Positions 38,963-50,416 are shown, numbered from the stretch's first letter. The stretch: DNA of 58,820 nt from Candidatus Limnocylindrales bacterium (GCA_035559535.1 DATMBG010000043.1:124001-182820); one strand, 5' to 3'. Numbers and translations: made by a program. The notes: generated from the sequence alone by a model not told the origin.

Positions 38963-40333
38963 ATGTCCGAGGAAAATATTGTAACCTGCAAATGTTGCCC
39001 TGTTTTCTGCCGAATTCGGCCCGGCCAGAAGGGAGCCTGTTTACGGTATGAAAATTACAACGGTGAGGTTCGCCGGACGATCCCACTGGTACGTTATGAC
39101 GCTATCAAGGAGGTTGCGGCAGATAACGACCAGCCGATAACAAATCACGAACTACAACCGGAAATTACAGGGATCGGTTCGGGAACCACTTATCCGGATT
39201 ATAAAAGAGCTCCCTTTATCGTTCAATACGAGGAAAGTGGTGTCGAAGTGGTTACGGTGGTATCGGAAGTGCCGCTCAGTTATTGTGGGATGGAAATTAA
39301 ACTGGATACCGATGAGTATATCGGGGAGGAGTGTGCCAAGGTTCATAGCGAGGGAGTTCAGGTTGGGTTTGTAGCACAAGAACAGTATGGATCCAAGATG
39401 CTCAGCCTGGGGGGAATTAATTTCATCAAGGAGAAAAAATCCGGGTTGAAAACCGTTCTCCTCATGGAAGCCATTGCCAATCGAGAAAAGGTGGAGGTTC
39501 AAATAGAAAGGGGAGCCCATATTGAATTCCGGGTGGGGGAAGCTCCTGTTATCAATGGGAAAAAAATCCAAAAGATGCGGGTGGGTTGTGGAAGCGCAGC
39601 CATGGCTTTATTTGCGTATCCTTTCCGAGAAGCCGCAGATGAGGTCATTGTAATCGACTCAGATTTAACTGCGATCTATACAGAGCATCCCGTGGGTAAG
39701 GATTTAGCTTCGGGTTTTTCCGGTATTCATCTTAAATTCCGTCGAAGCTCTCCAGGTCGGTATTTTGGTGATGATGGAGAGGGTTGGGGAGGAACCTCCA
39801 TTCAGAATCCCGTAGACGTTATCAGTTATATCGAAAACATCCGGGATAAAGAAGGGATGACCATCTTGATCACGGAGGCTACCGGTGAGCGAAGCGCTTT
39901 ATTTCAGGTTCAGAGAGGCAAGCTGATAGAAATTCCATTGACTCCCCAGGCTTCCCGGGTTGTTCAACTCATTCAGGAAAACTGTGAACCTTCCCGGGTA
40001 TCGGCCCTTTTTATCGGAGGAGCCGGTGGAAGTGCCCGGGTAGGAGTTGCCTCTAAACCCTTGAAGTTTACCGAAGCAGTACATCAGGGTAGGGTTAAAA
40101 TGACCTCCGGAGGTGCTCCCGTATTCATTTATCCAGGGGGGGGAATTACCTACCTGGTAGATGTGGAGAAAATCATGAAGGGTTCCTTTGGTTGGATTCC
40201 CACACCGGCTATGGTAGCTCCTATTGAATATACCATGCCGCTGGATCTCTATTTAGAACTGGGAGGATTTGCAGACTCGATCGTACCTTTAAAGGAACTA
40301 AGGGATCCGGTAGTCTTTTACCAGAGACCTTAG
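38963..40333 (+). CDS. hnr: 6-hydroxynicotinate reductase
   Basis: N-terminal CKCCPVFC...GAC, GTTYPDYK.APFIV, QYGSKMLSLGG, MRVGCGSA, GGAGGSAR, PGGGIT, PTPA.VAPIE. Context between the Mo-hydroxylase and UPF0280. Confidence 0.82.
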   Translation: MSEENIVTCKCCPVFCRIRPGQKGACLRYENYNGEVRRTIPLVRYDAIKEVAADNDQPITNHELQPEITGIGSGTTYPDYKRAPFIVQYEESGVEVVTVVSEVPLSYCGMEIKLDTDEYIGEECAKVHSEGVQVGFVAQEQYGSKMLSLGGINFIKEKKSGLKTVLLMEAIANREKVEVQIERGAHIEFRVGEAPVINGKKIQKMRVGCGSAAMALFAYPFREAADEVIVIDSDLTAIYTEHPVGKDLASGFSGIHLKFRRSSPGRYFGDDGEGWGGTSIQNPVDVISYIENIRDKEGMTILITEATGERSALFQVQRGKLIEIPLTPQASRVVQLIQENCEPSRVSALFIGGAGGSARVGVASKPLKFTEAVHQGRVKMTSGGAPVFIYPGGGITYLVDVEKIMKGSFGWIPTPAMVAPIEYTMPLDLYLELGGFADSIVPLKELRDPVVFYQRP

Positions 40334-40446
40334 GGGAAACAAAATATGGCCCCTTCTTCTCCGGGTTTATGAACTTTCCCTTAGAGTTGTGGGGTCTGAC
40401 GGACGATGTTCCTATAACTGCTTGGGGTGGAAAGCAATTCCTTTCC

Positions 40447-41295
40447 ATGAAAGAGTTTCGATTGATAAAGGAAGGTCAGGCTTCTGTTCAGTATGGGCCG
40501 ATGTTTTTAGTGGTCACCGTCTACGATATCCATGGGCCCAATACCCCTCTGGCCCTGGAAGGTGTTAAAAAGGGGACTCAGGTATTCGATCAAGTTGCCC
40601 GTTATAAACAGGTGGTTTTCCAGAATATCTGCAAGGTTAGAGAGGGCCCGAATTATCCCGACGTCGTCAATCATATGATTCAGTCGGTAGCCAGATTGGA
40701 TGATCCGACCTTTACCCCCATGGCGGCGGTTGCCGGATGTATTGCGGATAAAGTGGCCGACTTTCTGGTAGAAAAAGGGGGACAGAAAGTGGTGGTGGAT
40801 AACGGAGGGGATATCGCCATTCGCTTGGGAAATAAGGAGAGTATCGTAGTTGGAATTCGAACCGCTCTGGCTTCCCACCATATACGCTGTAAAGTAACCC
40901 TTTTCAAATCCGATGGAATTGGTGGCGTAGCGACCAGTGGACTGGGAGGACACAGCTTTACCAAGGGAATTGCCACTGCCGCTACAGCGTTTGCGGAGAA
41001 TGCAGGTTATGCCGATGCGGCGGCAACATTCATTGGAAATAGAACAAATATCGAAGATCCGGCCATTGAACGCCGACCGGCTGAGCAGATAAATCCCTTA
41101 ACTGATATTCCGGGTCATCTGGTTACTTACAGGGTAGGAACTCTTAGCAGGGAAAAGAGACTCAGGGCTCTACAAAACGGATTGGAGGCAGCAGAACTCT
41201 TGAGAACCCGAAGAGCCATTCAAGATGCACTGATTGCCATTCAGGAGGATATCTTCATGACAGAGGGTTTACGAGAAAGAATAATTTACTGTTAA
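40447..41295 (+). CDS. UPF0280 / ApbE-like protein
   Basis: TPMAAVAG..AD, VDNGGDIA, GVATSG.GG.SFT.GIA, ADAAAT..GN. No signal peptide. Confidence 0.85.
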   Translation: MKEFRLIKEGQASVQYGPMFLVVTVYDIHGPNTPLALEGVKKGTQVFDQVARYKQVVFQNICKVREGPNYPDVVNHMIQSVARLDDPTFTPMAAVAGCIADKVADFLVEKGGQKVVVDNGGDIAIRLGNKESIVVGIRTALASHHIRCKVTLFKSDGIGGVATSGLGGHSFTKGIATAATAFAENAGYADAAATFIGNRTNIEDPAIERRPAEQINPLTDIPGHLVTYRVGTLSREKRLRALQNGLEAAELLRTRRAIQDALIAIQEDIFMTEGLRERIIYC

Positions 41296-41402
41296 CCTGT
41301 CTGTTGTTCGTTGTCCGTTACCGATGATAGAGTAGGTTAAACGTCTTTGTTTGACAGATGAGAAAGCAACAGGCAACGAATGATGGACAACAGATTCAAG
41401 AA

Positions 41403-41981
41403 ATGAAAATCAGAAAATTCGTTACCATCGTTGAGGAGGTTTTAAGCGAGTTAGGCCGGGAAGTTCCAAAACCGATCAAGAAAGCCGCGGCCATTGCTGT
41501 GATAGAAAATCCGTTTGCAGGAAAATATGTCGAAGATTTAACCGAACTCATTGAAATCGGGGCAGAACTGGGAGATCTATTGGGGAAGCGCGCAGTGGAG
41601 GCTCTGGGGATTTCTCCAGATAAGGTAGAGAGCTATGGTAAAGCAGCTGTCGTGGGAATATTTGGAGAACTGGAGCATGCGGCAGCTATCCTCCATCCCA
41701 AGTTTGGAGATCCTTTTCGAAAACAGGTAGGAGGAGGAAAGGCAATTATTCCTTCAGCCAAAAAGGTCGGACCTCCGGCTACTCCTATTGATATTCCTCT
41801 CCATTACAAAGATGCCGCCTTTGTCCGTTCCCACTTCGATGCCATGGAGGTGCGGGTAGCGGATTCTCCAAGGCCTACAGAAATTTTGGTGGCCCTGGCT
41901 GTGACCGATGGAGGAAGACCTCTGGCCCGAATTGGAGGTTTAAGGAAAGAAGAGGCCAGGAAAGAAGACGGTCTGAGATAA
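41403..41981 (+). CDS. Amino acid synthesis family (DUF1185) protein
   Basis: AVIENPFAG.YVEDL, ESYGKAA.VG..GELEH, D.P...EI.VALA...GGRP..RIGG. Confidence 0.88.
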   Translation: MKIRKFVTIVEEVLSELGREVPKPIKKAAAIAVIENPFAGKYVEDLTELIEIGAELGDLLGKRAVEALGISPDKVESYGKAAVVGIFGELEHAAAILHPKFGDPFRKQVGGGKAIIPSAKKVGPPATPIDIPLHYKDAAFVRSHFDAMEVRVADSPRPTEILVALAVTDGGRPLARIGGLRKEEARKEDGLR

Positions 41982-42137: not shown

Positions 42138-42151
42138 CTGGGATATTTGTG

Positions 42152-43678
42152 ATGGAAAAGCAAAGATTTTACAAAAGAAGTAAAGTATCTTACGTTTTGT
42201 TTTTTATCATTTGCGTTGGATCTTTCACCTGCTCCCTTTTGCCTGTTGCCTTGGAAGTCTTTCTTTTACCCTCTATTTCGCAGGCTCAGGAAAGGTCTCC
42301 AACTTCTCGGGTCCAAAAGCCAAAGTATGTTCCCGGTGAGGTTATTATCAAATTGAAGTCGGAGGCCGTGGTTTCAAAGCAAAAGATGATGGAACGGCCA
42401 ACCGAAACGGGGAACAGAATGTTAGATTTCCTCAATAGCAAGTATCAGGTACGTGCCGTTGAACCTGTATTTAAGCAGAGAGCCCAGGAGTCCAGAACCC
42501 TGATAGCAGATGAACTTTCCAATGTTTTAAAACTGAAAATTGATGAGAGCAAGGATGTAGAAGCGGCTGCCCGGGAATATGCGGGATTGGAAGAGGTAGA
42601 ATATGCCGAGCCGAACTATTTTTATTTTATTTCGGCTATTCCAGATGATGCCTTCTTTTCCCTCCAATATGGTCTCCAAACAACTGATAAGAATGGAATT
42701 GATGCCGTGGAAGCCTGGGATCTGGAAAGGGGAAGTTCTAACGTAATTATCGGAATTGTGGATTCCGGTGTGGATTATAATCACGAAGACCTGGCAGGTA
42801 AAGTCCTCAAAGGTTCTGATTTTGTAAATAACGATGAAGATCCCATGGATGATAACGGACATGGAACCCATGTCAGTGGGATTGCAGCGGCTATTTCCAA
42901 TAATCATAAGGGAATTGCAGGGGTTTGCTGGAATTGCAAGATTTTAGCAGTCAAGTCGGTAGATATGGATGGTTCAGGTGCCAATACCTGGATTGCCAAC
43001 GGTATTACTTATGCCGTCGATCACGGAGCCCGGGTCATTAATCTAAGCTTAGGAGGATCCAATCCGTCGAGGACTATGGAGCTATCCATTCAAGATGCCT
43101 ATCGTCGTGGTGCCGTGATTGTAGCTGCAAGTGGGAATGATAATTCAAATACGGTGGAATATCCGGCGGCATTTCCTGAGGTTATTGCCGTTGGAGCTAC
43201 CAATCAACAAGGCATAAAGGCCGGTTTTTCCAATTACGGAGCTTATCTCAGCGTAGTCGCTCCCGGTCAGGCCATTTATAGCTCTCTTCCCAACAATAGA
43301 TATCAGGCCTGGAGCGGGACTTCCATGGCAACCCCCCACGTTGCAGGCCTGGTAGGTTTGATTCTTTCCAAAAATCCCTCTTTATCTAATACTCAGGTAC
43401 GGTCTATCTTAACTTCCACGGCAGACGATCTGGGAGATCCGGGAAGAGACGATTTTTTTGGCTTCGGTCGAATCAATGCCTTTAGAGCCCTCACAGAAGC
43501 TACCAAACCAGGTTCGGGGGGTTCTCCGACTCCTACACCGCCTTCCTCTTCCCTTCCGCCACCTCCCGGTAAAACGACCCCTGGGATCTGTGGGCCCTTT
43601 CTTCATACCCTGGGGGCTATATTTTTTTTGATCGCCGGCTGGAAATTTTGGAATCGAGACCGTCGGTGTAAGAGGTAA
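42152..43678 (+). CDS. Exported subtilisin-like S8 serine protease with propeptide, Pro-rich linker and a Cys-containing C-terminal sorting signal
   Basis: Catalytic motifs DSG, HGTHVSG and GTSMATPHVAG. YVPGEVIIK and YAEPNY propeptide. Tail GICGPFLHTLGAIFFLIAGWKFWNRDRRCKR. Confidence 0.93.
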   Translation: MEKQRFYKRSKVSYVLFFIICVGSFTCSLLPVALEVFLLPSISQAQERSPTSRVQKPKYVPGEVIIKLKSEAVVSKQKMMERPTETGNRMLDFLNSKYQVRAVEPVFKQRAQESRTLIADELSNVLKLKIDESKDVEAAAREYAGLEEVEYAEPNYFYFISAIPDDAFFSLQYGLQTTDKNGIDAVEAWDLERGSSNVIIGIVDSGVDYNHEDLAGKVLKGSDFVNNDEDPMDDNGHGTHVSGIAAAISNNHKGIAGVCWNCKILAVKSVDMDGSGANTWIANGITYAVDHGARVINLSLGGSNPSRTMELSIQDAYRRGAVIVAASGNDNSNTVEYPAAFPEVIAVGATNQQGIKAGFSNYGAYLSVVAPGQAIYSSLPNNRYQAWSGTSMATPHVAGLVGLILSKNPSLSNTQVRSILTSTADDLGDPGRDDFFGFGRINAFRALTEATKPGSGGSPTPTPPSSSLPPPPGKTTPGICGPFLHTLGAIFFLIAGWKFWNRDRRCKR

Positions 43679-44388
43679 AACAAGGCTATCATCATAATTC
43701 CCAGAGAGATCAATTGGGGGATTGTAAAACCTAGGGGAAGTTTTTCCTCTGAAGGTCTATAGAAATCTACACCGAAACGGATGAGGGAAGATAAAAAGAG
43801 GTAAGTGAGAAGCAGGGAACCGGAAGGGATGGACAATTGCCGATAATTGCTTGCCATGTAGGATAGTAATGGAAGGAGGAGAAGGTTAAGACCTGCCTCA
43901 TAAAGTTGAATAGGATGTCGAACAGCGCCGTTTATTGTAATCCCCCAGGGAACCGTTGTGATAATTCCGGAATCGCACCCATTCATCAGGCATCCTATGC
44001 GCATAATGGGTAAAGCTAAAGCCAGACCCGGGGCCAGGGTATCCCCTACCTTCCAGATATCCAAACCACGCCTTCGAGCCAGGTATAAAACTGTCACTCC
44101 AGAAGCTATCAGTCCGCCCTGAAAGGATAGTCCTCCCCCCTCCAGGGTTAAAATCTGGGTGGGATAAAGGCGGTAGTAGGACCAATTTAAAAGGACAAAA
44201 AGCAAGCGAGCCCCTAAAACGGCAATCAAAAATCCCCAGAAGGTTGCATCCACAACCACATCTCGAGGAATCGATAATCTCCTCGCATACCGGAGTGCCA
44301 ACCAGAGTCCGGCCAGACAAGCAACGACCAGCAATACCGTTTGGGTATATAAAGCAAAGCCTCCTATGTTGAATAAAACAGGATACAT
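43603..44388 (-). CDS. lgt: Divergent prolipoprotein diacylglyceryl transferase (Lgt family)
   Basis: MYPVLF, GARL, GGLSFQGG, RIGC..NGC..G, PWG, HPIQLYE, RF.VDFYR. Confidence 0.88.
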   Translation of the reverse strand: MYPVLFNIGGFALYTQTVLLVVACLAGLWLALRYARRLSIPRDVVVDATFWGFLIAVLGARLLFVLLNWSYYRLYPTQILTLEGGGLSFQGGLIASGVTVLYLARRRGLDIWKVGDTLAPGLALALPIMRIGCLMNGCDSGIITTVPWGITINGAVRHPIQLYEAGLNLLLLPLLSYMASNYRQLSIPSGSLLLTYLFLSSLIRFGVDFYRPSEEKLPLGFTIPQLISLGIMMIALFYLLHRRSRFQNFQPAIKKNIAPRV

Positions 44389-44419
44389 GAAGAGAATCCT
44401 GAACTATACTTTTTTGGAC

Positions 44420-44580
44420 AGGGGGACGCGGAGACGCGGGGGATAATGGGGTATGGTAAGATGGTAAGACAGAGAATTCTGTCTCCATATCTCCCACTCT
44501 CCGTGTCTCCCACTCCCCACATCTCCGTGTCCCCGCGTCCCCGCGTTCCCCCCCCCCCGTGTCTTCCACCCCCCGTGTCA
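44420..44580. repeat. Octamer-based imperfect palindrome (GGAGACGC / GCGTCCCC-type units)
   Basis: G-rich units, a GACAGAGAATTCTGTC centre, then C-rich CC(G/C)(T/C)GTC units. Confidence 0.75.
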
Positions 44581-44601
44581 CTGTCTACTGCCCACGATCC
44601 A

Positions 44602-46005
44602 TTACCTATTGTTTTTGATTCGGTGCCGTATAAATACCCGGAAGGGAACTAAAACACCGGCCAGTACTATCAGATTGGCTCCGGTAGAATAAGTGGTATT
44701 ACTGCTTAAAAATGGACCGAAGCAGGTAGAGCCTTGATAAGGTCGGGTTTCAGGTCTTTCTAACTCCTGGGCTAAAGCGTTGGCCTCTCCTATTAAAGGA
44801 GCACCTTCTGTGATATGATAAATATAGCTTTGAATGGCAAACTCCGAGAAACCCTTTTCATTTCCTACGCGAATAACCCGCTCCAGACGCCTGTCATGAT
44901 TCACAACGTTGGTATAAACTGTATTTTGTGTTGGATTGGGACCGGCACTACGGGTACGGTAAACCCGAATAAATTGGGTAAAATTGGTTGTGTTAGGGTC
45001 GACAAAAAAGGAAATATCTTCACCCATAACAACCTGGGGGGCCTGACGGTCCAAAGATTCTAAAATATCTCCGGCACTCAGGGTTACTTCACGCGGTACA
45101 ACCGTTGGATTAGAGGTAGAAAAGGTGACAATCAGTGCACCTCCGCCGCCGCCTGGGAGTGGGGTAGCACTTGGTGGAATGAGCTCAGGAAAAGAAGCTT
45201 CCCAAATAGGTTGGGCACCTGCACTCAAGGTAGATACCCTCTGAAAGAGATAGAACAGAGCATCCTGGACATCGGTGTAAAGGGAATTTAACTTTTGTCC
45301 GGTTCGAATTAACTGCTCCGCATCGTACTCATGATCTATTACCTTACGGTAGATAAGGGAAGGAATTCTCGAATCTCGCGGAGTAACCACAAGATCTCGG
45401 GTCGTAACTCCGCCCTGAACTTGAGGGGAAGATGAATAGGTACCGGAATAGGGTGGATAGGTTCCCCCCGGATAGGATCCCGGGGGAGAAGACGGATAAG
45501 TTCCGGGGGGATAAGGTTGATAACCCGGATAAGGCTGATAAATTCCTCCTGGATAGGACCCCGGAGGAGGAGGTAAAGAAGAAGTACCCCCTAAAGCGGC
45601 AGTGTCGATCACATAGACTGTTACATCGATCTTGGACCTTCGGTTATGGGGGGGTAACTTAAACCGCACATCTTCTCCGATGAGTAAATCAAAAGTTTTT
45701 ACAAGATCATCCAGGATGACCCCTTCAATGGCAAGATTGAGGGCATTAATATTATCTAATCTAACCCGATCTCCGGTTTCTAAAACAAAAGATTGCTCCC
45801 TGGGTTCCGGATTAAATACAAAAAGCTGGGCATGGTCATTCCCCCGGATCCATTCCAGATGCCAGTCTATGACAGCATGAGCCCGGGATGGGAGTAAAGT
45901 TATTCCTATCAGGAGACCTGTTAAACCGAAGTAAAAACAATGGCGGAATCTACCAGGAATTTTAATTGAGAATAGCTTAAAAATTTTTATATGGCAGGCC
46001 CTCAT
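44602..46005 (-). CDS. Exported hypothetical protein with an internally duplicated domain, a Pro/Tyr/Gly-rich insert and a Cys-containing C-terminal sorting signal
   Basis: Signal peptide ending SRAHA. PGSYPGG repeats. Tail GSTCFGPFLSSNTTYSTGANLIVLAGVLVPFRVFIRHRIKNNR. Confidence 0.8.
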   Translation of the reverse strand: MRACHIKIFKLFSIKIPGRFRHCFYFGLTGLLIGITLLPSRAHAVIDWHLEWIRGNDHAQLFVFNPEPREQSFVLETGDRVRLDNINALNLAIEGVILDDLVKTFDLLIGEDVRFKLPPHNRRSKIDVTVYVIDTAALGGTSSLPPPPGSYPGGIYQPYPGYQPYPPGTYPSSPPGSYPGGTYPPYSGTYSSSPQVQGGVTTRDLVVTPRDSRIPSLIYRKVIDHEYDAEQLIRTGQKLNSLYTDVQDALFYLFQRVSTLSAGAQPIWEASFPELIPPSATPLPGGGGGALIVTFSTSNPTVVPREVTLSAGDILESLDRQAPQVVMGEDISFFVDPNTTNFTQFIRVYRTRSAGPNPTQNTVYTNVVNHDRRLERVIRVGNEKGFSEFAIQSYIYHITEGAPLIGEANALAQELERPETRPYQGSTCFGPFLSSNTTYSTGANLIVLAGVLVPFRVFIRHRIKNNR

Positions 46006-46191
46006 GCGCTTTCTCCTTTATTTTAAATAGGTTGCAAAGTATAAGCAAAACTATAGATATTATGATAAGTTGAGGCGATAACTTAACAATGAAAGACCTT
46101 AAAGTCAAGCAAAAATTACTGTAAATTGTTTGACAATCTCCTTATTTTGCGTAAAAATTTTATATATTATCCTGTTTCTCACGGAAACTAT

Positions 46192-46746
46192 ATGACCTTC
46201 TTACTGCTTACCTTGGGAATTCTCCAGAGTGTTCTTTTGCAAATTCCCTTTTCTCAGAGGGTTTTGGTCGATAAAATTGTAGCTATCGTTCAAAATACTG
46301 ACATTATCACCTGGAGTGAATTGAGAGAAGCGGCAAATTCTAAATCTTTAGGATTTTTACTCGATCTTCAGGGAACTCCCGATGAAAAGAAGGTTCTTGA
46401 ATATTTGATAGAAAATAGGTTGATATTACATGAAATTGGTTATCTTTCCCATCGGAATGTGGAACCTATCGAGCTAGAGGTTGCTTTGAGATGGATAATA
46501 AAAGCCTATATTCAGCCGGGTCATTCTCTTCTTACCCGGGAGGAATTCCAAAAAGCCTTAGAAGAAAAAGGCATTTCCACCCAGGAACTGAAGCAATTAC
46601 TGGAACCTCAACTCCGTGGAATAGAGTATATCCGAAGAAAAAATCGCTTTACAGCGGATATTCAAGATCCCGAAAAGGTTTTAGAACTCTTTGAAAACTG
46701 GATCGAGGAACTTAAAAAGCAAGGAGAGATCCAGTATCCTGAGTAA
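46192..46746 (+). CDS. SurA N-terminal-like periplasmic chaperone, no PPIase domain
   Basis: Signal-like N-terminus, VLVDKIVAIV...IITWSEL, LEYLIENRLIL, EEFQKALEEKGIS. Confidence 0.65.
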   Translation: MTFLLLTLGILQSVLLQIPFSQRVLVDKIVAIVQNTDIITWSELREAANSKSLGFLLDLQGTPDEKKVLEYLIENRLILHEIGYLSHRNVEPIELEVALRWIIKAYIQPGHSLLTREEFQKALEEKGISTQELKQLLEPQLRGIEYIRRKNRFTADIQDPEKVLELFENWIEELKKQGEIQYPE

Positions 46747-47895
46747 ATGATACCTGAATCTTTAAAGAAAGGGTTTAACCTGACTCTACAAAATTGGCCT
46801 TTGATTTTAATTCAGATCCTTCTCAATGGCGCTCTAACCTTAGCCATTGGGATCCCGGCTCAACTGGGTAAGGCTTATTTCCTTAATGAATGGGAGAAAG
46901 TTTTTAACCAGGCAAGTATAAATTTGCTGAAGGCTCTACAAGAACTTCTGGTATTCTTAAAAGAACGTTTAGATGTCTTTCTTGCCCTGGGGTTTTATCT
47001 TTTCTCCATGCTTTTAATCTGGAGTATTTTGTTATTTTTCATTCAAGGTGGAATTCGAGGAATTCTTAAAGATGCCCTGTTTGCGGGGATGGGAATGAAT
47101 CCCCGGGATCGGTTAAGTCCCTTTTCTACAAAAAGTGAGTCGCCTACTTATCCGGAGGGCTTTATTCAGGAGAACCGCCAGGAAGTTTTTCCATTTTTAA
47201 AAGAGCTTGAACGTTCGGAGTCGTCTCTATCGGGCTATTCCTCAGACGGCCTGGAAAAAATTCGGTTATCTGGCCAGCCAGCCTTTAAAATGAGGCGCTT
47301 TATAAGATATGGAGTTTATTTCCTCCTCCGGATGCTGGCCTTACAAGCCTGGTTAGGTCTCATCTTAATTCTCTCATTGGGAATTCTGCTGGCTTCATCC
47401 TCTCTGGCCTTTTATCTTTTGAATCAATCCACAGAATTTGAACAAGGGGTTGGGATGATGATTCTAGGATCTGCCTCATTTTTGTTCTTTTTACTGTTCA
47501 TAGGGATCATACTGGCTCAGCCTTACGCCAGCATTATTATTGTTCTAAAAGACCTCCGGAGTTTTAGAGGTCTCAGGCAGGGTATCCGGTTTGTAATGGA
47601 TCATCTGGAAGGGGTTTTAGGATTATTTTTCATATTTTTAGGGCTTCTGGGAGTACTCACGTTGATGCTGGAACTGGGAGACGTGACGGTAACCTATGTG
47701 GTGGGATCCATTCTTTCAGAGAAAAACCCGTTATTTAAGGTGATCTTTTTAATCCTGACGTACCTGATCTGGAACTTTTTCCAATCGTTCATACAGCTCT
47801 TTGCTTTAGGTTCCCAGATGAGTTATTATGCCCTGAGTCAACGGGCTTATACGAATCCCTCTCATCTTGTTTCTTCGGATCAAACAGAGCTTTAG
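46747..47895 (+). CDS. Multi-pass membrane protein of unknown function
   Basis: About 6 hydrophobic segments with a hydrophilic loop near aa 115-180. Confidence 0.75.
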   Translation: MIPESLKKGFNLTLQNWPLILIQILLNGALTLAIGIPAQLGKAYFLNEWEKVFNQASINLLKALQELLVFLKERLDVFLALGFYLFSMLLIWSILLFFIQGGIRGILKDALFAGMGMNPRDRLSPFSTKSESPTYPEGFIQENRQEVFPFLKELERSESSLSGYSSDGLEKIRLSGQPAFKMRRFIRYGVYFLLRMLALQAWLGLILILSLGILLASSSLAFYLLNQSTEFEQGVGMMILGSASFLFFLLFIGIILAQPYASIIIVLKDLRSFRGLRQGIRFVMDHLEGVLGLFFIFLGLLGVLTLMLELGDVTVTYVVGSILSEKNPLFKVIFLILTYLIWNFFQSFIQLFALGSQMSYYALSQRAYTNPSHLVSSDQTEL

Positions 47896-48145: not shown

Positions 48146-50416
48146 TTGAAGTCTTTTCTTCAAAATCACTTATTCGGTGTGGCTTTACTCATCTCTCTGG
48201 CTCTACATGTCGCCTTTATCCTGGCTATTCCCAGTGTTCAGGTAGTTCCTTCCACTTCGGAGGAATATACAGAAGTCCGGTTGATAGAGTCGGAAGAGGT
48301 CCGGGAGCCTGCTTCTTCTCAGCAAGATCTGTTAATAGGTGTTCAGGGTGTGACTGGTCCCATAACCCGGGAGGTACCCACCGATCTGGATGTAAAAGAG
48401 CCGGAGGGGCCCGTACCTGTTAGAAAACCAGATCTTTTGGCTAAAACTGAAGAAGCTCAGCCCCCAGATATCCAGCGAAGGGCTTCCGAAGATACTCCGA
48501 GAGAAAAACAACTTTCTCCTTCTCTGCCATTGAAGTCTTTACCCGAACAACCCTCTCTATCTGAAAGGTTTACACAAAAGTCCCAAAAAGATTCTGTAGC
48601 TGGTCTGGAAGAATCCACAGATAAAGAAATACCTCCCTTGAAGGATTCTGTTTCTACAGTACCGGAACAAAACCTAAAGCCTGATCTCAAACGGCCGGGT
48701 TTAGTCCTTCCTACTCAAGATCCTGTTCCGGCTGTTTCGGCACCAGAATTGATCACGAATCTTGCGGAGAAGGTACCCACACCCCAAAAGGAAGAGGGTG
48801 CTAAAGCACAAATATCGGACAATCCCGTATCGAACTCTGAGTTGGCCCAATCAAAATCCGAAAGTAAAGTGACCCGGGATGAAGTCTTACAGAGTCAGGC
48901 ATCGGACAAAGAAATTCCTCAACTCAAAGACATGGCCTCGATCCAATTAGAAAAAACGGCCTTGAAGCAAGAAACCCTGAGATCTCCGAAACCAGAGTCG
49001 AGTTTGGAGGATATTTTGCCTCCGGTCCGTTTACCTTCAGAAACCGTTTCCCGGCCGACCAGGAACGAGCCTGTTCTGAAACGGGAAAGCTTGGAGCAAA
49101 TTCAAATTGCGCAAAGTGCTACCCAACTGGAAAATAAGTCGGATATTCAGGTCAACAAGGAAGATCCTTCCTCAAAATCTGTAGAAGAGACCAAAGAAAC
49201 CCCTACTTCTAAAGACAGAACTCCTGTTAAATCAGAAGATTCTCTAACCCAGAAACTTTTGAAATCTCCGGAGGTTAAATCAAAACCGGAAGAGTTACTA
49301 TCTCCTGCTACCCGGTCGGTTAAGGTACCTCCTCCGGTAACAGGAAAAGAGCCGGTTCTAGAGCAGGAAGACTCAAAGCAAGCCCAGATCAAACAGAACT
49401 CTCTGGAACCAGAAAAGAAAGTAGACATTCAAATCAACAGAGATAGCCTCGATTTAAAGCCTGGGGAAGGGAGTAAGGAAACCCCAACGGTTAAAGATAA
49501 AAATTTAGTGGTGGCAGAAACTGTCCCTGCTATTTCTGCGGAGATAAATTTGAAAGGAGGGCCGCAGACTTTACTTAAAGAACCCGCACCGGTTACGCAA
49601 CCTCCCTCTAAGATTCCTGATTTGATTAAAGATCCCCGGGCTCCGGCCCAGATTCCGGAAGGTCCCCAAAAGCAAAAGATGGTTGAGACCCTTGAAGGAT
49701 CTCAAGGGATCAGGCCAGAATCCGGATGGGAACGTAAATCTCCCCTATCAGAACCCGGCGAGAATTCCAAAGAAGTTCCCGATACCCAAGATTCCACGAA
49801 TTCGATTCCATCGGTTCCTATCGCCAAGAAAATAACCCCTGCTCCTCCAGCAATTTCAGATAAGTTACCCCTCGGGGAAACTACCGTATCCCGTGCAGAG
49901 TCTAAGATTACATCCTTTCCCAATCAGGGCTTACCTTCTGATTCCGGCCTCTCTAAGCGAGCTTTAGAGGTGCAGGTCTTTAATTCCGGCGAGTTTAATA
50001 AAAGTTCCTTTGGAATTCCAGTACCTAAAGAAGAAGCTAAGCGGCTGGATTCTTTGGAAAAAAAGGAGCCGGATTCCCTTCCTCAACTTACGGAAGATTT
50101 ACAGCATCGGGAAGTTCCTTTACCTAAAGGGTTTCCTATTAAATCCCAGATTCAGGGTCCGGCCGGGTCTCGGGAGATTATTTACCAGCCTCCTCCACCT
50201 AAAGTAAATATCGATGTGGAAGGAGAAGTGGTGTTACAGTTCTGGATTCAACCGGATGGAAGTGTCGGTAGGGTCATTCCACGTCAGAAAGTAGATACCC
50301 GGTTAGAACAGGCGGCAATCAGTTATATTCAAAAATGGAGATTTGCCCCCTTGCCGGAAAATGTCGCCCAGGAAGAGCAATGGGGCACTATTTCTATTAA
50401 ATATAAGCTCCGGTAG
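48146..50416 (+). CDS. TonB-family energy transducer with a very long repetitive spacer
   Basis: N-terminal TM ISLALH (SxxxH), about 620 aa P/E/K/S-rich spacer, TonB_C (EGEVVLQFWIQPDGSV...AAISYIQKWRFAP). TTG start after AGGAG. Confidence 0.85.
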   Translation: MKSFLQNHLFGVALLISLALHVAFILAIPSVQVVPSTSEEYTEVRLIESEEVREPASSQQDLLIGVQGVTGPITREVPTDLDVKEPEGPVPVRKPDLLAKTEEAQPPDIQRRASEDTPREKQLSPSLPLKSLPEQPSLSERFTQKSQKDSVAGLEESTDKEIPPLKDSVSTVPEQNLKPDLKRPGLVLPTQDPVPAVSAPELITNLAEKVPTPQKEEGAKAQISDNPVSNSELAQSKSESKVTRDEVLQSQASDKEIPQLKDMASIQLEKTALKQETLRSPKPESSLEDILPPVRLPSETVSRPTRNEPVLKRESLEQIQIAQSATQLENKSDIQVNKEDPSSKSVEETKETPTSKDRTPVKSEDSLTQKLLKSPEVKSKPEELLSPATRSVKVPPPVTGKEPVLEQEDSKQAQIKQNSLEPEKKVDIQINRDSLDLKPGEGSKETPTVKDKNLVVAETVPAISAEINLKGGPQTLLKEPAPVTQPPSKIPDLIKDPRAPAQIPEGPQKQKMVETLEGSQGIRPESGWERKSPLSEPGENSKEVPDTQDSTNSIPSVPIAKKITPAPPAISDKLPLGETTVSRAESKITSFPNQGLPSDSGLSKRALEVQVFNSGEFNKSSFGIPVPKEEAKRLDSLEKKEPDSLPQLTEDLQHREVPLPKGFPIKSQIQGPAGSREIIYQPPPPKVNIDVEGEVVLQFWIQPDGSVGRVIPRQKVDTRLEQAAISYIQKWRFAPLPENVAQEEQWGTISIKYKLR

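What the first reader, a model, noticed from the sequence alone, without database searches (positions are those of the whole stretch)
42152..46005. Candidate new C-terminal lipidation/sorting system: an Lgt paralog flanked by two Cys-GPFL-tailed exported proteins
Seen: two unrelated proteins with N-terminal signal peptides flank an Lgt-family gene. Both end in linker-Cys-(F)-G-P-F-L, a hydrophobic stretch and a basic cluster: GICGPFL...GAIFFLIAGWKFWNRDRRCKR (Cys codon 43589-43591) and STCFGPFL...ANLIVLAGVLVPFRVFIRHRIKNNR (Cys codon 44722-44724). Known: Lgt adds diacylglycerol to the N-terminal lipobox Cys. Cys-containing C-terminal sorting signals exist (MYXO-CTERM, Synerg-CTERM, JDVT-CTERM, and CGP-CTERM of Thermococcales) and are linked to intramembrane proteases. 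Inference: this Lgt paralog lipidates the C-terminal Cys to anchor surface proteins. I know of no described Lgt dedicated to C-terminal signals.
Basis: partly seen in the sequence, partly recalled or inferred. Interest (0 to 1): 0.85.

Follow-up and report, generated by a model that had tools for sequence, protein, structure and literature searches.

The report
Extra Lgt enzyme paired with Cys-tailed proteins
A second, divergent copy of the bacterial lipoprotein-making enzyme Lgt always sits next to a secreted protein whose C-terminal membrane tail carries an invariant cysteine, making it a testable candidate for the still-unknown enzyme that lipidates cysteine-containing C-terminal sorting signals.

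Summary
At 42149-46005 lie an S8 subtilisin (+), an Lgt-family gene (-) and an orphan 467-aa exported protein, "p3" (-). Both flanking proteins end in linker-Cys-(F)GPFL, a hydrophobic helix and a basic cluster.

The genome also has a canonical lgt elsewhere (TIGR00544 244 bits, against 101 for this copy; cut-off 118.9).

The paralog belongs to a monophyletic clade found once in each of the 9 genomes of its small phylum. In 10 of 10 contexts with upstream DNA, p3 lies directly upstream on the same strand. In p3 tails the only invariant residues are the Cys and a Pro in the helix. Orthologues of the subtilisin in all 9 genomes carry a Cys-Gly + helix + basic tail, even where they are unlinked to the paralog.

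The clade keeps the catalytic arginines (R143, R239, R246 in E. coli numbering). It replaces Y26, G27 and Y235, and each of these replacements inactivates E. coli Lgt.

Most likely this is an Lgt-type transferase specialised for a C-terminal, inverted-topology Cys signal. No chemistry has been shown. The idea of an "Lgt-like" enzyme for such signals is in print; a dedicated paralog is not. Verdict: new variant of a known kind, interest about 0.75.

The parts
42149..43678 (+). S8 subtilisin-like protease, 509 aa, with a signal-peptide-like N-terminus, a prodomain, a catalytic domain, a Pro-rich linker and a C-terminal Cys tail. Candidate client 2.
   Evidence: PF00082 230.6 bits; TIGR03921 mycosin 236.6 bits, below its 278.75 cut-off. 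Orthologues at 50-57% identity occur in all 9 genomes.
43550..43675 (+). C-terminal tail of the S8 protease: Pro-rich linker, G-I-C-G-P-F-L (Cys codon 43589-43591), hydrophobic helix, basic end RDRRCKR. Its last 76 nt overlap the 3' end of the Lgt paralog on the opposite strand.
   Evidence: In alignment A4 of 8 orthologous tails only C and the following G are invariant. An HMM of A4 finds one strong hit per genome in 9 of 9 (51-77 bits; next best at most 16.7 bits). 7 of 7 substitutions before the overlap are synonymous.
43603..44388 (-). Divergent Lgt-family paralog ('Lgt2'), 261 aa, a predicted multi-helix membrane protein with the Lgt fold.
   Evidence: PF01790 162.9 bits; TIGR00544 100.7 bits, below 118.9. 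The AF2 model has pLDDT 84.6 and matches 5azb with Foldseek E 1.5e-8, TM 0.70. The clade is monophyletic with support 0.98. Clade-specific residues are Q16, T17, S200, D208; R130, R204, R211 are retained.
44389..44601 (-). 213-nt spacer between p3 and Lgt2 holding a G-rich 8/16-nt repeat and its inverted copy. It is predicted to form a long hairpin. No terminator-like site was called in it.
   Evidence: RNA fold -100.6 kcal/mol. The spacer is only 72 nt in the congeneric genome, so the element is not part of the conserved system.
44602..46005 (-). p3: orphan exported protein, 467 aa. It has a signal-peptide-like N-terminus, two beta-sandwich-plus-helices modules separated by a Pro/Tyr/Gly-rich low-complexity linker, and a C-terminal Cys tail. 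Candidate client 1.
   Evidence: No Pfam or NCBIfam family. AF2 pLDDT 66.1. No significant fold match. Only 7 representatives among 1.84 billion proteins. It lies directly upstream of Lgt2 in 10 of 10 contexts.
44605..44760 (-). C-terminal tail of p3: ..G-S-T-C-F-G-P-F-L (Cys codon 44722-44724), a 14-residue Ser/Thr-rich spacer, a hydrophobic helix with an invariant Pro, and a basic end.
   Evidence: In alignment A2 of 10 tails only C13 and P39 are invariant. The Cys is present in 12 of 12 full-length family members (one row is shifted by one column). An HMM of A2 finds exactly one strong hit per genome in 9 of 9.
46126..46746 (+). SurA_N-like protein, 206 aa, a putative periplasmic chaperone, transcribed divergently from p3. 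It is a conserved neighbour.
   Evidence: PF09312 24.4 bits, E 3.5e-5, below the 30.8 cut-off. A homologous ORF lies beside p3 in 9 of 10 contexts, judged by inspection; it is absent in L012.

Best explanation
Lgt2 is a neofunctionalised member of the prolipoprotein diacylglyceryl transferase family. It works beside the housekeeping Lgt and serves a small, fixed set of exported clients: the orphan protein p3, encoded directly upstream, and an S8 protease.

Proposed pathway:
1. Each client is exported through an N-terminal signal peptide.
2. It is held in the inner membrane by a C-terminal tripartite tail: Cys-containing motif, hydrophobic helix, basic cluster.
3. Lgt2 transfers a lipid to the thiol of the invariant tail Cys at the outer face of the membrane. 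By homology the lipid is most likely a diacylglyceryl group from phosphatidylglycerol.
4. The client then has a C-terminal lipid anchor.
5. The helix may afterwards be cut off by an unidentified protease. Candidates are an unlinked CPBP-family protease or, speculatively, the co-conserved S8 protease itself.

Shown here: the gene pairing, the invariant Cys, the second lgt, the retained catalytic arginines and the altered pocket residues. Inferred: the transfer reaction, the lipid donor and any cleavage.
For: (1) A second, canonical lgt exists in the genome: TIGR00544 244.3 bits against 100.7 for this copy, cut-off 118.9. All 4 clade members tested fall below the cut-off, at 96.2-107.3 bits.

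(2) The paralog defines a distinct clade.
- HMM scores are bimodal: at least 283.9 bits for clade members and at most 185.8 bits for all other Lgts in hand.
- The clade is monophyletic with support 0.98, and the phylum's canonical Lgts form a separate clade with support 1.0.
- Each of the 9 genomes of the phylum has exactly one of each type.

(3) p3 lies directly upstream on the same strand in 10 of 10 distinct contexts with upstream DNA, with gaps of 25-213 nt. Four further clade loci are cut at contig ends and cannot be judged.

(4) Control: 35 non-clade Lgt loci have at least 1.5 kb on both sides. Five have a neighbour with a helix-plus-basic end, all of which look like multi-pass membrane proteins. 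One of those has a Cys upstream. None resembles an exported Cys-tailed protein.

(5) In p3 tails that are only 21-29% identical between the two families, just the Cys and a Pro in the helix are invariant.

(6) The unrelated S8 protease carries a Cys-Gly + helix + basic tail in all 9 genomes. In f2 genomes its gene is 171-670 kb from Lgt2 or on another contig. It is adjacent to Lgt2 in this genus and in metagenome locus L012. A tail-less S8 paralog exists in the same genome.

(7) The clade keeps R143, R239, R246, G154 and D129 (E. coli numbering) and has the Lgt fold. Its changes fall at residues lining the lipid and peptide pocket.

(8) Literature: the enzyme that modifies the invariant Cys of MYXO-CTERM-type signals is unknown. 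An 'Lgt-like acyl-transferase' is the stated working model, with Lgt as leading candidate (passages of 10.1101/2023.06.07.544157; passages of PMC11980579).
Against: - No biochemical or expression data exist.
- Y26Q, Y235S and H103Q (H103Q occurs in this window and its closest relatives) each abolish complementation by E. coli Lgt, as do other replacements of G27. E243A/Q/R are also inactive; the D found here was not tested there (passages of PMC4728403). Lgt2 could therefore use another donor or acceptor, or be inactive.
- The substrate helix would have the opposite topology to a signal peptide, and there is no lipobox.
- In p3 the Cys lies 14-25 residues before the helix. In the described Cys-containing signals the motif abuts the helix.
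- No protease gene is linked. No myxosortase-family protein passes its cut-off in any of the 9 genomes. LspA is single-copy in 8 of 9.
- All evidence comes from one small lineage: 9 species, 4 genera, one order. Conserved synteny among kin is not independent replication.
- The tails match no curated sorting-signal model. The best results are 2 of 10 p3 tails to CoaP_CTERM at E 0.0039 and 1 of 10 to Synerg-CTERM at E 0.076; 0 of 8 S8 tails match anything.
Confidence: 0.45

Rival explanations
1. Lgt2 has a job other than modifying the tails. It might lipidate a subset of ordinary N-terminal lipoproteins, or transfer a lipid or head group to a non-protein acceptor. On this reading p3 and the S8 protease are simply C-terminally helix-anchored envelope proteins, as mycosins are. 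Their conserved Cys would serve another purpose, such as a disulfide, metal binding or another modification, and the p3-Lgt2 operon would reflect a different functional link.
For: - Second Lgt copies that act on N-terminal lipoboxes, or have presumed low activity, are known. An example is M. smegmatis MSMEG_5408 with Y26H and N146C (passage of PMC13251419).
- The best NCBIfam hit of the S8 protease is mycosin, 236.6 bits. That mycosins are helix-anchored is my recollection, not a result here.
- The p3 Cys is 14-25 residues from the helix.
- Two p3 orthologues (G003, G004) have lipobox-like I-V-G-C or L-I-G-C in their signal peptides.
Against: - The N-terminal Cys is not conserved in the p3 family. 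The conserved A-x-A before (A/V)(L/I)DW points to signal peptidase I.
- The tail Cys is one of only two invariant tail positions in each of two unrelated families.
- The loss of Y26, G27 and Y235 argues against ordinary Lgt activity.
- The adjacency holds in 10 of 10 contexts, with no comparable neighbour at the 35 control loci.
Confidence: 0.3
2. Lgt2 is a catalytically dead or weak pseudo-enzyme. It kept the Lgt fold and now binds the tail helices, for example as a membrane receptor, chaperone or retention factor for p3 and the protease. No lipid is transferred.
For: Four positions essential in E. coli Lgt are changed: Y26, G27, Y235 and, in this window, H103.
Against: R143, R239, R246, G154 and D129 and the HP-QLYE motif are invariant in the clade. 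Such conservation of catalytic arginines is not expected in a dead enzyme. N146C and E151C/D variants occur in canonical Lgts (passage of PMC13251419).
Confidence: 0.12
3. The association is inherited synteny without functional meaning, and the similar tails are coincidental membrane anchors.
For: All contexts come from one order. Kin share gene order by descent.
Against: - Apart from the SurA_N-like gene (9 of 10), gene order around the pair is not conserved between the two families, yet p3-Lgt2 stays together.
- The S8 gene has moved relative to Lgt2, yet keeps its Cys tail.
- Only 2 tail-bearing proteins exist per genome, and in this genus both flank the same gene.
Confidence: 0.08

Closest known systems
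Housekeeping Lgt (phosphatidylglycerol:prolipoprotein diacylglyceryl transferase; E. coli Lgt, PDB 5azb/5azc; TIGR00544)
   Same: Pfam family PF01790. Same fold (Foldseek E 1.5e-8, TM 0.70). Conserved R143, R239, R246, G154, D129 and the HP-QLYE motif.
   Different: - It is a second copy, below the TIGR00544 equivalog cut-off.
- It carries Y26Q, G27T, Y235S, E243D, and H103Q in this window.
- It forms its own clade.
- It is encoded with proteins that lack a lipobox but carry a C-terminal Cys tail.
- The presumed substrate helix has inverted topology.
MYXO-CTERM, JDVT-CTERM and Synerg-CTERM signals with their CPBP-family myxosortases (MrtX, MrtJ, MrtS)
   Same: Tripartite C-terminal signal with an invariant Cys. 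Few-client or single-client systems sit next to their enzyme (the JDVT-CTERM/MrtJ two-gene neighbourhood). Synerg-CTERM also has an invariant Pro in the helix. Lipidation of the Cys by an unidentified enzyme is proposed (passages read).
   Different: - The linked enzyme here is an Lgt-family transferase, not a CPBP protease.
- No Mrt-family protein passes its cut-off in any of the 9 genomes.
- The tails match none of the curated models.
- p3 tails have a spacer between the Cys and the helix.
CGP-CTERM (TIGR04288) with archaeomyxosortase MrtA of Thermococcales
   Same: A Cys-Gly-Pro signature directly before the helix resembles the S8 tail of this window (C-G-P-F-L) (passage read).
   Different: CGP-CTERM is archaeal, has many clients and is paired with a CPBP protease. 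The window's tails do not hit TIGR04288 at E up to 10. The GP is not conserved in orthologues here.
Second Lgt copies in Actinobacteria (for example M. smegmatis MSMEG_5408)
   Same: An extra Lgt homologue beside the main one, with changes at Y26 and N146 (passage of PMC13251419).
   Different: The passages I read describe no link between those copies and C-terminal Cys tails. The clade here has its own signature (Q16, T17, S200) and a fixed client gene next to it.

Membership tests
Lgt family (Pfam PF01790) | Domain match above the gathering threshold | tested here: met
   162.9 bits against 24.9
Lgt family (Pfam PF01790) | Multi-helix membrane fold of E. coli Lgt | tested here: met
   AF2 model pLDDT 84.6, pTM 0.82. 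Foldseek hit to 5azb at E 1.5e-8, TM 0.70, rmsd 4.1; it is the only hit at E up to 0.001.
Canonical Lgt (NCBIfam TIGR00544 equivalog) | Score above the curated cut-off of 118.9 bits | tested here: not met
   Window 100.7 bits; three other clade members 96.2, 100.2 and 107.3. The same genome's other lgt scores 244.3.
Canonical Lgt (NCBIfam TIGR00544 equivalog) | Catalytic and essential residues R143, R239, R246, G154 | tested here: met
   R130, R204, R211 and G141 are invariant in the clade.
Canonical Lgt (NCBIfam TIGR00544 equivalog) | Y26, G27 and Y235, essential in E. coli and present in 90-96% of 107 canonical sequences | tested here: not met
   Q16 and S200 occur in 23 of 23 alignment rows and T17 in 96%. 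Among clade members read from loci and the window, Q16 occurs in 13 of 13 assessable and S200 in 13 of 14. The E. coli mutants Y26A/F/Q, G27L/Q/W and Y235F/L/S are inactive (PMC4728403 passages).
Canonical Lgt (NCBIfam TIGR00544 equivalog) | H103 of the HGGL motif | tested here: not met
   Q90 in the window, G001 and L012; H in the other clade members. H103Q is inactive in E. coli. H103 is not universal among Lgts (PMC13251419 passage).
Canonical Lgt (NCBIfam TIGR00544 equivalog) | Transfers diacylglyceryl to the Cys of an N-terminal lipobox | not testable with these tools
   Needs a biochemical or complementation assay.
[quoted passage not shown] | Signature motif with an invariant Cys, then a hydrophobic helix, then a basic cluster at the extreme C-terminus of exported proteins | tested here: met
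   Met in two unrelated families. p3: Cys in 12 of 12. S8: Cys-Gly in 8 of 8 aligned tails, and a tail HMM hit in 9 of 9 genomes.
[quoted passage not shown] | Match to a curated model (TIGR03901, TIGR04288, TIGR04564, the JDVT model) | tested here: not met
   No hit for the window's tails at E up to 10. 1 of 10 p3 tails hits Synerg-CTERM at E 0.076. 0 of 8 S8 tails hit anything.
[quoted passage not shown] | Cognate myxosortase-family CPBP protease in the genome | tested here: not met
   NF040914 Mrt_core passes its cut-off in 0 of 9 genomes; the best score is 38.9 bits against 100. The two CPBP proteins of this genome are below every Mrt cut-off.
[quoted passage not shown] | Signature motif abuts the helix without a spacer | tested here: inconclusive
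   True for the S8 tails. p3 tails have a 14-25-residue polar spacer (AF2 places the helix at 442-465 and the Cys at 428).
Mycosin (TIGR03921) | Score above the curated cut-off | tested here: not met
   236.6 bits against 278.75

The most novel reading that the evidence does not exclude
Lgt2 is the first example of an Lgt-family enzyme dedicated to lipidating the invariant Cys of a C-terminal, inverted-topology sorting signal. That would make it the missing 'step one' enzyme of Cys-containing C-terminal sorting pathways, here in a minimal form: one enzyme with two fixed clients. The co-conserved, tail-bearing S8 protease might supply the cleavage step.
Probability: 0.4. Interest if true: 0.85.

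Novelty: new variant of a known kind. Interest (0 to 1): 0.75.

Why it matters
Cys-containing C-terminal sorting signals (MYXO-CTERM and relatives) are thought to be lipidated on the Cys before a CPBP protease cuts them. The authors who defined them state that the modifying enzyme is unknown, and they name housekeeping Lgt only as a candidate (passages read).

Housekeeping Lgt is essential in many bacteria and has many substrates, so it is hard to test. This locus offers a non-essential-looking paralog that is genetically tied to one or two clients with a single invariant Cys. A co-expression and mass-spectrometry experiment could therefore settle directly whether an Lgt-fold enzyme can act on a C-terminal, inverted-topology substrate.

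The clade-specific residues at Y26, G27 and Y235 also point to positions that may set substrate orientation or lipid choice in the Lgt family.

Tried and rejected
- Complex prediction of Lgt2 (alignment A1) with the p3 tail (A2): no verdict, score 0.01 against a mark of 0.32; controls were not run. This is not used as evidence either way.
- RNA evidence for co-transcription: no RNA holder listed among 16 runs.
- Function of p3: no family. Foldseek against the PDB gave nothing at E up to 0.001. The best VIA wide Z was 6.0, over 59 residues, with weak Z of about 4 to thioester-domain adhesins; all are below the tool's noise guide of 8. The ESM Atlas best score was 0.81, to an unnamed cluster.
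- Earlier notes of this scan: nothing near this place.
- Linked protease: Pfam scans of the neighbours found none other than the S8 protease. The two CPBP genes lie on other contigs and are not Mrt members.
- A larger client set: HMMs of both tail types find only one strong hit each per genome. More divergent tails could be missed, since the p3-tail HMM does not detect the S8 tail.
- An extra Lgt in a lineage known for Synerg-CTERM: the one Synergistaceae genome reachable (through L010) has a single Lgt. One genome is no test.
- The genome-contig scan used patterns from the window protein only. It found one close relative (L003, 90%), so it is not a survey of the clade's range.
- Literature: searches returned no paper describing an Lgt paralog dedicated to C-terminal signals. 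The KSB3 genome paper (PMC4312070) has no occurrence of 'lipoprotein', 'diacylglyceryl', 'subtilisin' or 'sortase' in its main text. Supplements of all papers were not seen; Fig. S8 of PMC13251419 (Lgt phylogeny) might already show this clade.

Full report
**Observation**

The region holds three genes.
- An S8 subtilisin-like protease at 42149..43678 (+, 509 aa). PF00082 scores 230.6 bits. The nearest NCBIfam model is mycosin TIGR03921 at 236.6 bits, below its 278.75 cut-off.
- An Lgt-family gene at 43603..44388 (-, 261 aa; PF01790 162.9 bits).
- A 467-aa protein at 44602..46005 (-), here called p3, with no Pfam or NCBIfam family.

Both flanking proteins begin with signal-peptide-like segments, judged by inspection. 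The last 76 nt of the protease gene overlap the 3' end of the Lgt gene on the opposite strand.

Against the congeneric genome, 7 of 7 substitutions in the 83 nt of the protease tail region before the overlap are synonymous. One of them is in the Cys codon. Inside the overlap, wobble positions of the two frames coincide, and both frames show a mix of silent and replacement changes.

**Is it more than chance?**

In the whole 5.6-Mb genome, 137 of 14,203 six-frame ORFs of at least 80 aa have C-x(0-2)-GP in the last 55 residues. Only these two follow it with a hydrophobic stretch and a basic end, by inspection.

Of 41 ORFs of at least 200 aa that end in a helix plus a basic cluster, 5 have a Cys in the preceding segment. 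Only the two beside the Lgt gene look like exported proteins with a Pro/Ser/Thr linker.

**A second lgt**

The genome has two PF01790 genes. The one on another contig scores 269.9 bits for Pfam and 244.3 bits for the TIGR00544 equivalog (cut-off 118.9). The window's copy scores 100.7 bits on TIGR00544.

A search of 5.8 billion proteins gave 23 clusters at 180-503 bits, then a drop to 151 bits or less, where ordinary Lgts begin. One of the 23 is named 'prolipoprotein diacylglyceryl transferase 3 [Candidatus Vecturithrix granuli]' by its source, so the clade occurs in the candidate phylum KSB3.

Further support for a distinct clade:
- An HMM of the clade (alignment A1) separates all Lgt ORFs in hand cleanly: at least 283.9 bits against at most 185.8 bits.
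- In a maximum-likelihood tree of 24 clade and 107 other Lgts, the clade is monophyletic with support 0.98. It takes in one fragment (P0034) that I had first placed among the others.
- The phylum's canonical Lgts form their own clade with support 1.0.
- All 9 genomes held for the phylum (4 genera, 2 families, one order) have exactly one of each type: 296-407 bits and 140-170 bits.

**Conserved partner 1: p3**

I fetched up to 20 kb around the paralog in the 8 other genomes and read the ORFs. With the window and metagenome locus L012, that gives 10 distinct contexts with upstream DNA.

In 10 of 10, the gene directly upstream on the same strand is a p3 homologue. The gaps are 25-213 nt (the values for G006, 53 nt, and G004, 87 nt, I worked out by hand). 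Four further clade loci (L013, L014, L018, L034) are cut at contig ends and cannot be judged.

In the window no terminator-like site was called in the gap.

The p3 family is tiny: 5 clusters by word search and 7 representatives among 1.84 billion by profile search. Three of the clusters come from contigs whose listed lengths equal those of clade Lgt clusters. That suggests the two genes share a contig there too, but does not prove it.

In the 52-residue tails, which are 21-29% identical between the two families, only the Cys and a Pro inside the helix are invariant. The Cys is present in 12 of 12 full-length members (one row is shifted by a column). An HMM of these tails finds exactly one strong hit per genome in 9 of 9, at 75-87 bits, with the next best at 16.7 bits or less.

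**Control**

Of 35 non-clade Lgt loci with at least 1.5 kb on both sides, 5 have a neighbour ending in a helix plus a basic cluster. All 5 look like multi-pass membrane proteins. One has a Cys upstream, and none resembles an exported Cys-tailed protein. The same automatic rule missed the weakly hydrophobic protease tail of L012, so it is conservative.

**Conserved partner 2: the S8 protease**

The protease is adjacent to the paralog only in this genus and in L012. However, orthologues at 50-57% identity exist in all 7 genomes of the other family. There they lie 171-670 kb away or on other contigs.

The six whose C-termini I could read all end in a Pro-rich linker, then [I/L/S]-C-G, a hydrophobic helix and a basic end. 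In the alignment of 8 tails only C and the following G are invariant. An HMM of these tails finds one strong hit per genome in 9 of 9, at 51-77 bits, including the genome whose ORF I could not read.

A 52%-identical S8 paralog in the window's own genome has no such tail.

The general feature is an invariant Cys, usually as C-x(0,1)-G. No curated sorting-signal model matches these tails.

**The enzyme**

The AF2 model (pLDDT 84.6) matches E. coli Lgt (5azb) at Foldseek E 1.5e-8 and TM 0.70.

Mapping onto E. coli numbering through the alignment shows two patterns.
- Retained, invariant in the clade: R143, R239, R246, G154, D129 and the HP-QLYE motif.
- Clade-specific, present in 100% of clade rows and at most 2% of 107 other Lgts: Q at Y26, S at Y235, D at E243, D one residue after the second Cys of the signature motif. 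T at G27 is present in 96% of clade rows.

The window, its congener and L012 also have Q at H103.

In E. coli, Y26A/F/Q, G27L/Q/W, H103A/N/Q/R/Y, Y235F/L/S and E243A/Q/R all fail to complement. Y26 and Y235 hydrogen-bond the lipid in its two binding sites (PMC4728403, passages read).

The Cys-for-Asn and Cys-for-Glu variants of the signature motif are shared with many canonical Lgts. One example sits in an ileS-lspA-lgt arrangement, and the variants are noted in PMC13251419. The phylum's own canonical Lgts are of the Asn/Asp type. Together with the tree, this argues against a recent in-phylum duplication.

**Interpretation**

The pattern is the one used to pair sorting enzymes with their signals: a distinct enzyme subfamily, a short C-terminal tripartite signal with one invariant residue in unrelated exported proteins, matching species distribution, and adjacency in a low-copy system.

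The most economical reading is that Lgt2 attaches a lipid to the tail Cys. The altered Y26, G27 and Y235 would then reflect a different way of holding the lipid or a peptide that enters in the opposite orientation.

This fits an open question. The definers of MYXO-, JDVT-, Synerg- and CGP-CTERM wrote that they do not know what protein modifies the Cys (10.1101/2023.06.07.544157, passages). [quoted passage not shown] It names Lgt as leading candidate and notes the missing lipobox and inverted topology (PMC11980579, passages).

My literature searches found no description of a dedicated Lgt paralog. Supplements were closed.

**What argues against it**

- Nothing chemical is shown.
- The changed residues could equally mean a different reaction or loss of activity.
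- The p3 Cys is 14-25 residues from the helix.
- No protease is linked. No myxosortase-family protein passes its cut-off in any of the 9 genomes, the genome's two CPBP proteins are unlinked and below all Mrt cut-offs, and LspA is single-copy in 8 of 9.
- The evidence comes from one small lineage, whose members are not independent.

A conserved CPBP protein of about 330 aa, or the tail-bearing S8 protease itself, could do the cleavage. That is speculation.

**Other parts of the locus**

A SurA_N-like gene (46126..46746; PF09312 at E 3.5e-5, below threshold) lies divergently beside p3 in 9 of 10 contexts, by inspection. It may be a chaperone for p3.

p3 itself folds, at moderate confidence (pLDDT 66.1), into two beta-sandwich-plus-helices modules, a disordered stretch holding the Cys, and a terminal helix at 442-465. 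It has no convincing structural relative.

**Verdict**

This is a new variant of known kinds: the Lgt family and the Cys-containing C-terminal signals. It is of high interest because it turns an open question into a simple experiment.

Noticed in passing
window 44389-44601 (- strand): The p3-Lgt2 spacer holds a G-rich 8/16-nt tandem repeat followed by its inverted copy. It is predicted to fold into one long hairpin (-100.6 kcal/mol). The spacer is only 72 nt in the congeneric genome, so this looks like an inserted element. Only two short partial copies were found elsewhere in the genome.
   Followed up: partly
window 43603-43678: There is a 76-nt convergent overlap between the protease tail and the 3' end of Lgt2. 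The third codon positions of the two frames coincide, so several substitutions against the congener are silent in both frames. L012 has a similar overlap of about 104 nt.
   Followed up: partly
window 38963-41981 (+): A conserved trio lies upstream of the protease: a 456-aa protein with no Pfam family, an ApbE-like protein (25.5 bits, just under its cut-off) and an AA_synth protein (PF06684, 252 bits). The trio is also present in L003 and L012, downstream of a large ORF of more than 400 aa whose family I did not test.
   Followed up: no
window 46747-47895 (+) and 48146-50416 (+): A 382-aa multi-pass membrane protein without any Pfam family follows the SurA_N-like gene. After it comes a 756-aa protein with a long Pro/Glu/Lys/Ser-rich repetitive region and a TonB_C domain at its end (39.7 bits).
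   Followed up: no
L093 12653-13849 (-) and equivalents in L094, L096-L100: In the other family of the phylum, a conserved protein of about 400-430 aa with no Pfam family lies beyond the SurA_N-like gene. It is not present at that position in the window.
   Followed up: no
L097 and L100 (p3 orthologues of G003, G004): Two p3 orthologues have lipobox-like I-V-G-C or L-I-G-C inside their signal peptides. The Cys is not conserved in the family, and the conserved A-x-A site suggests signal peptidase I.
   Followed up: partly
protein P0023: One metagenomic clade member has its first helix replaced by a type IV pilin-like N-terminal methylation motif (PF07963 in the precomputed domains). This may be a chimeric or misassembled gene.
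   Followed up: no
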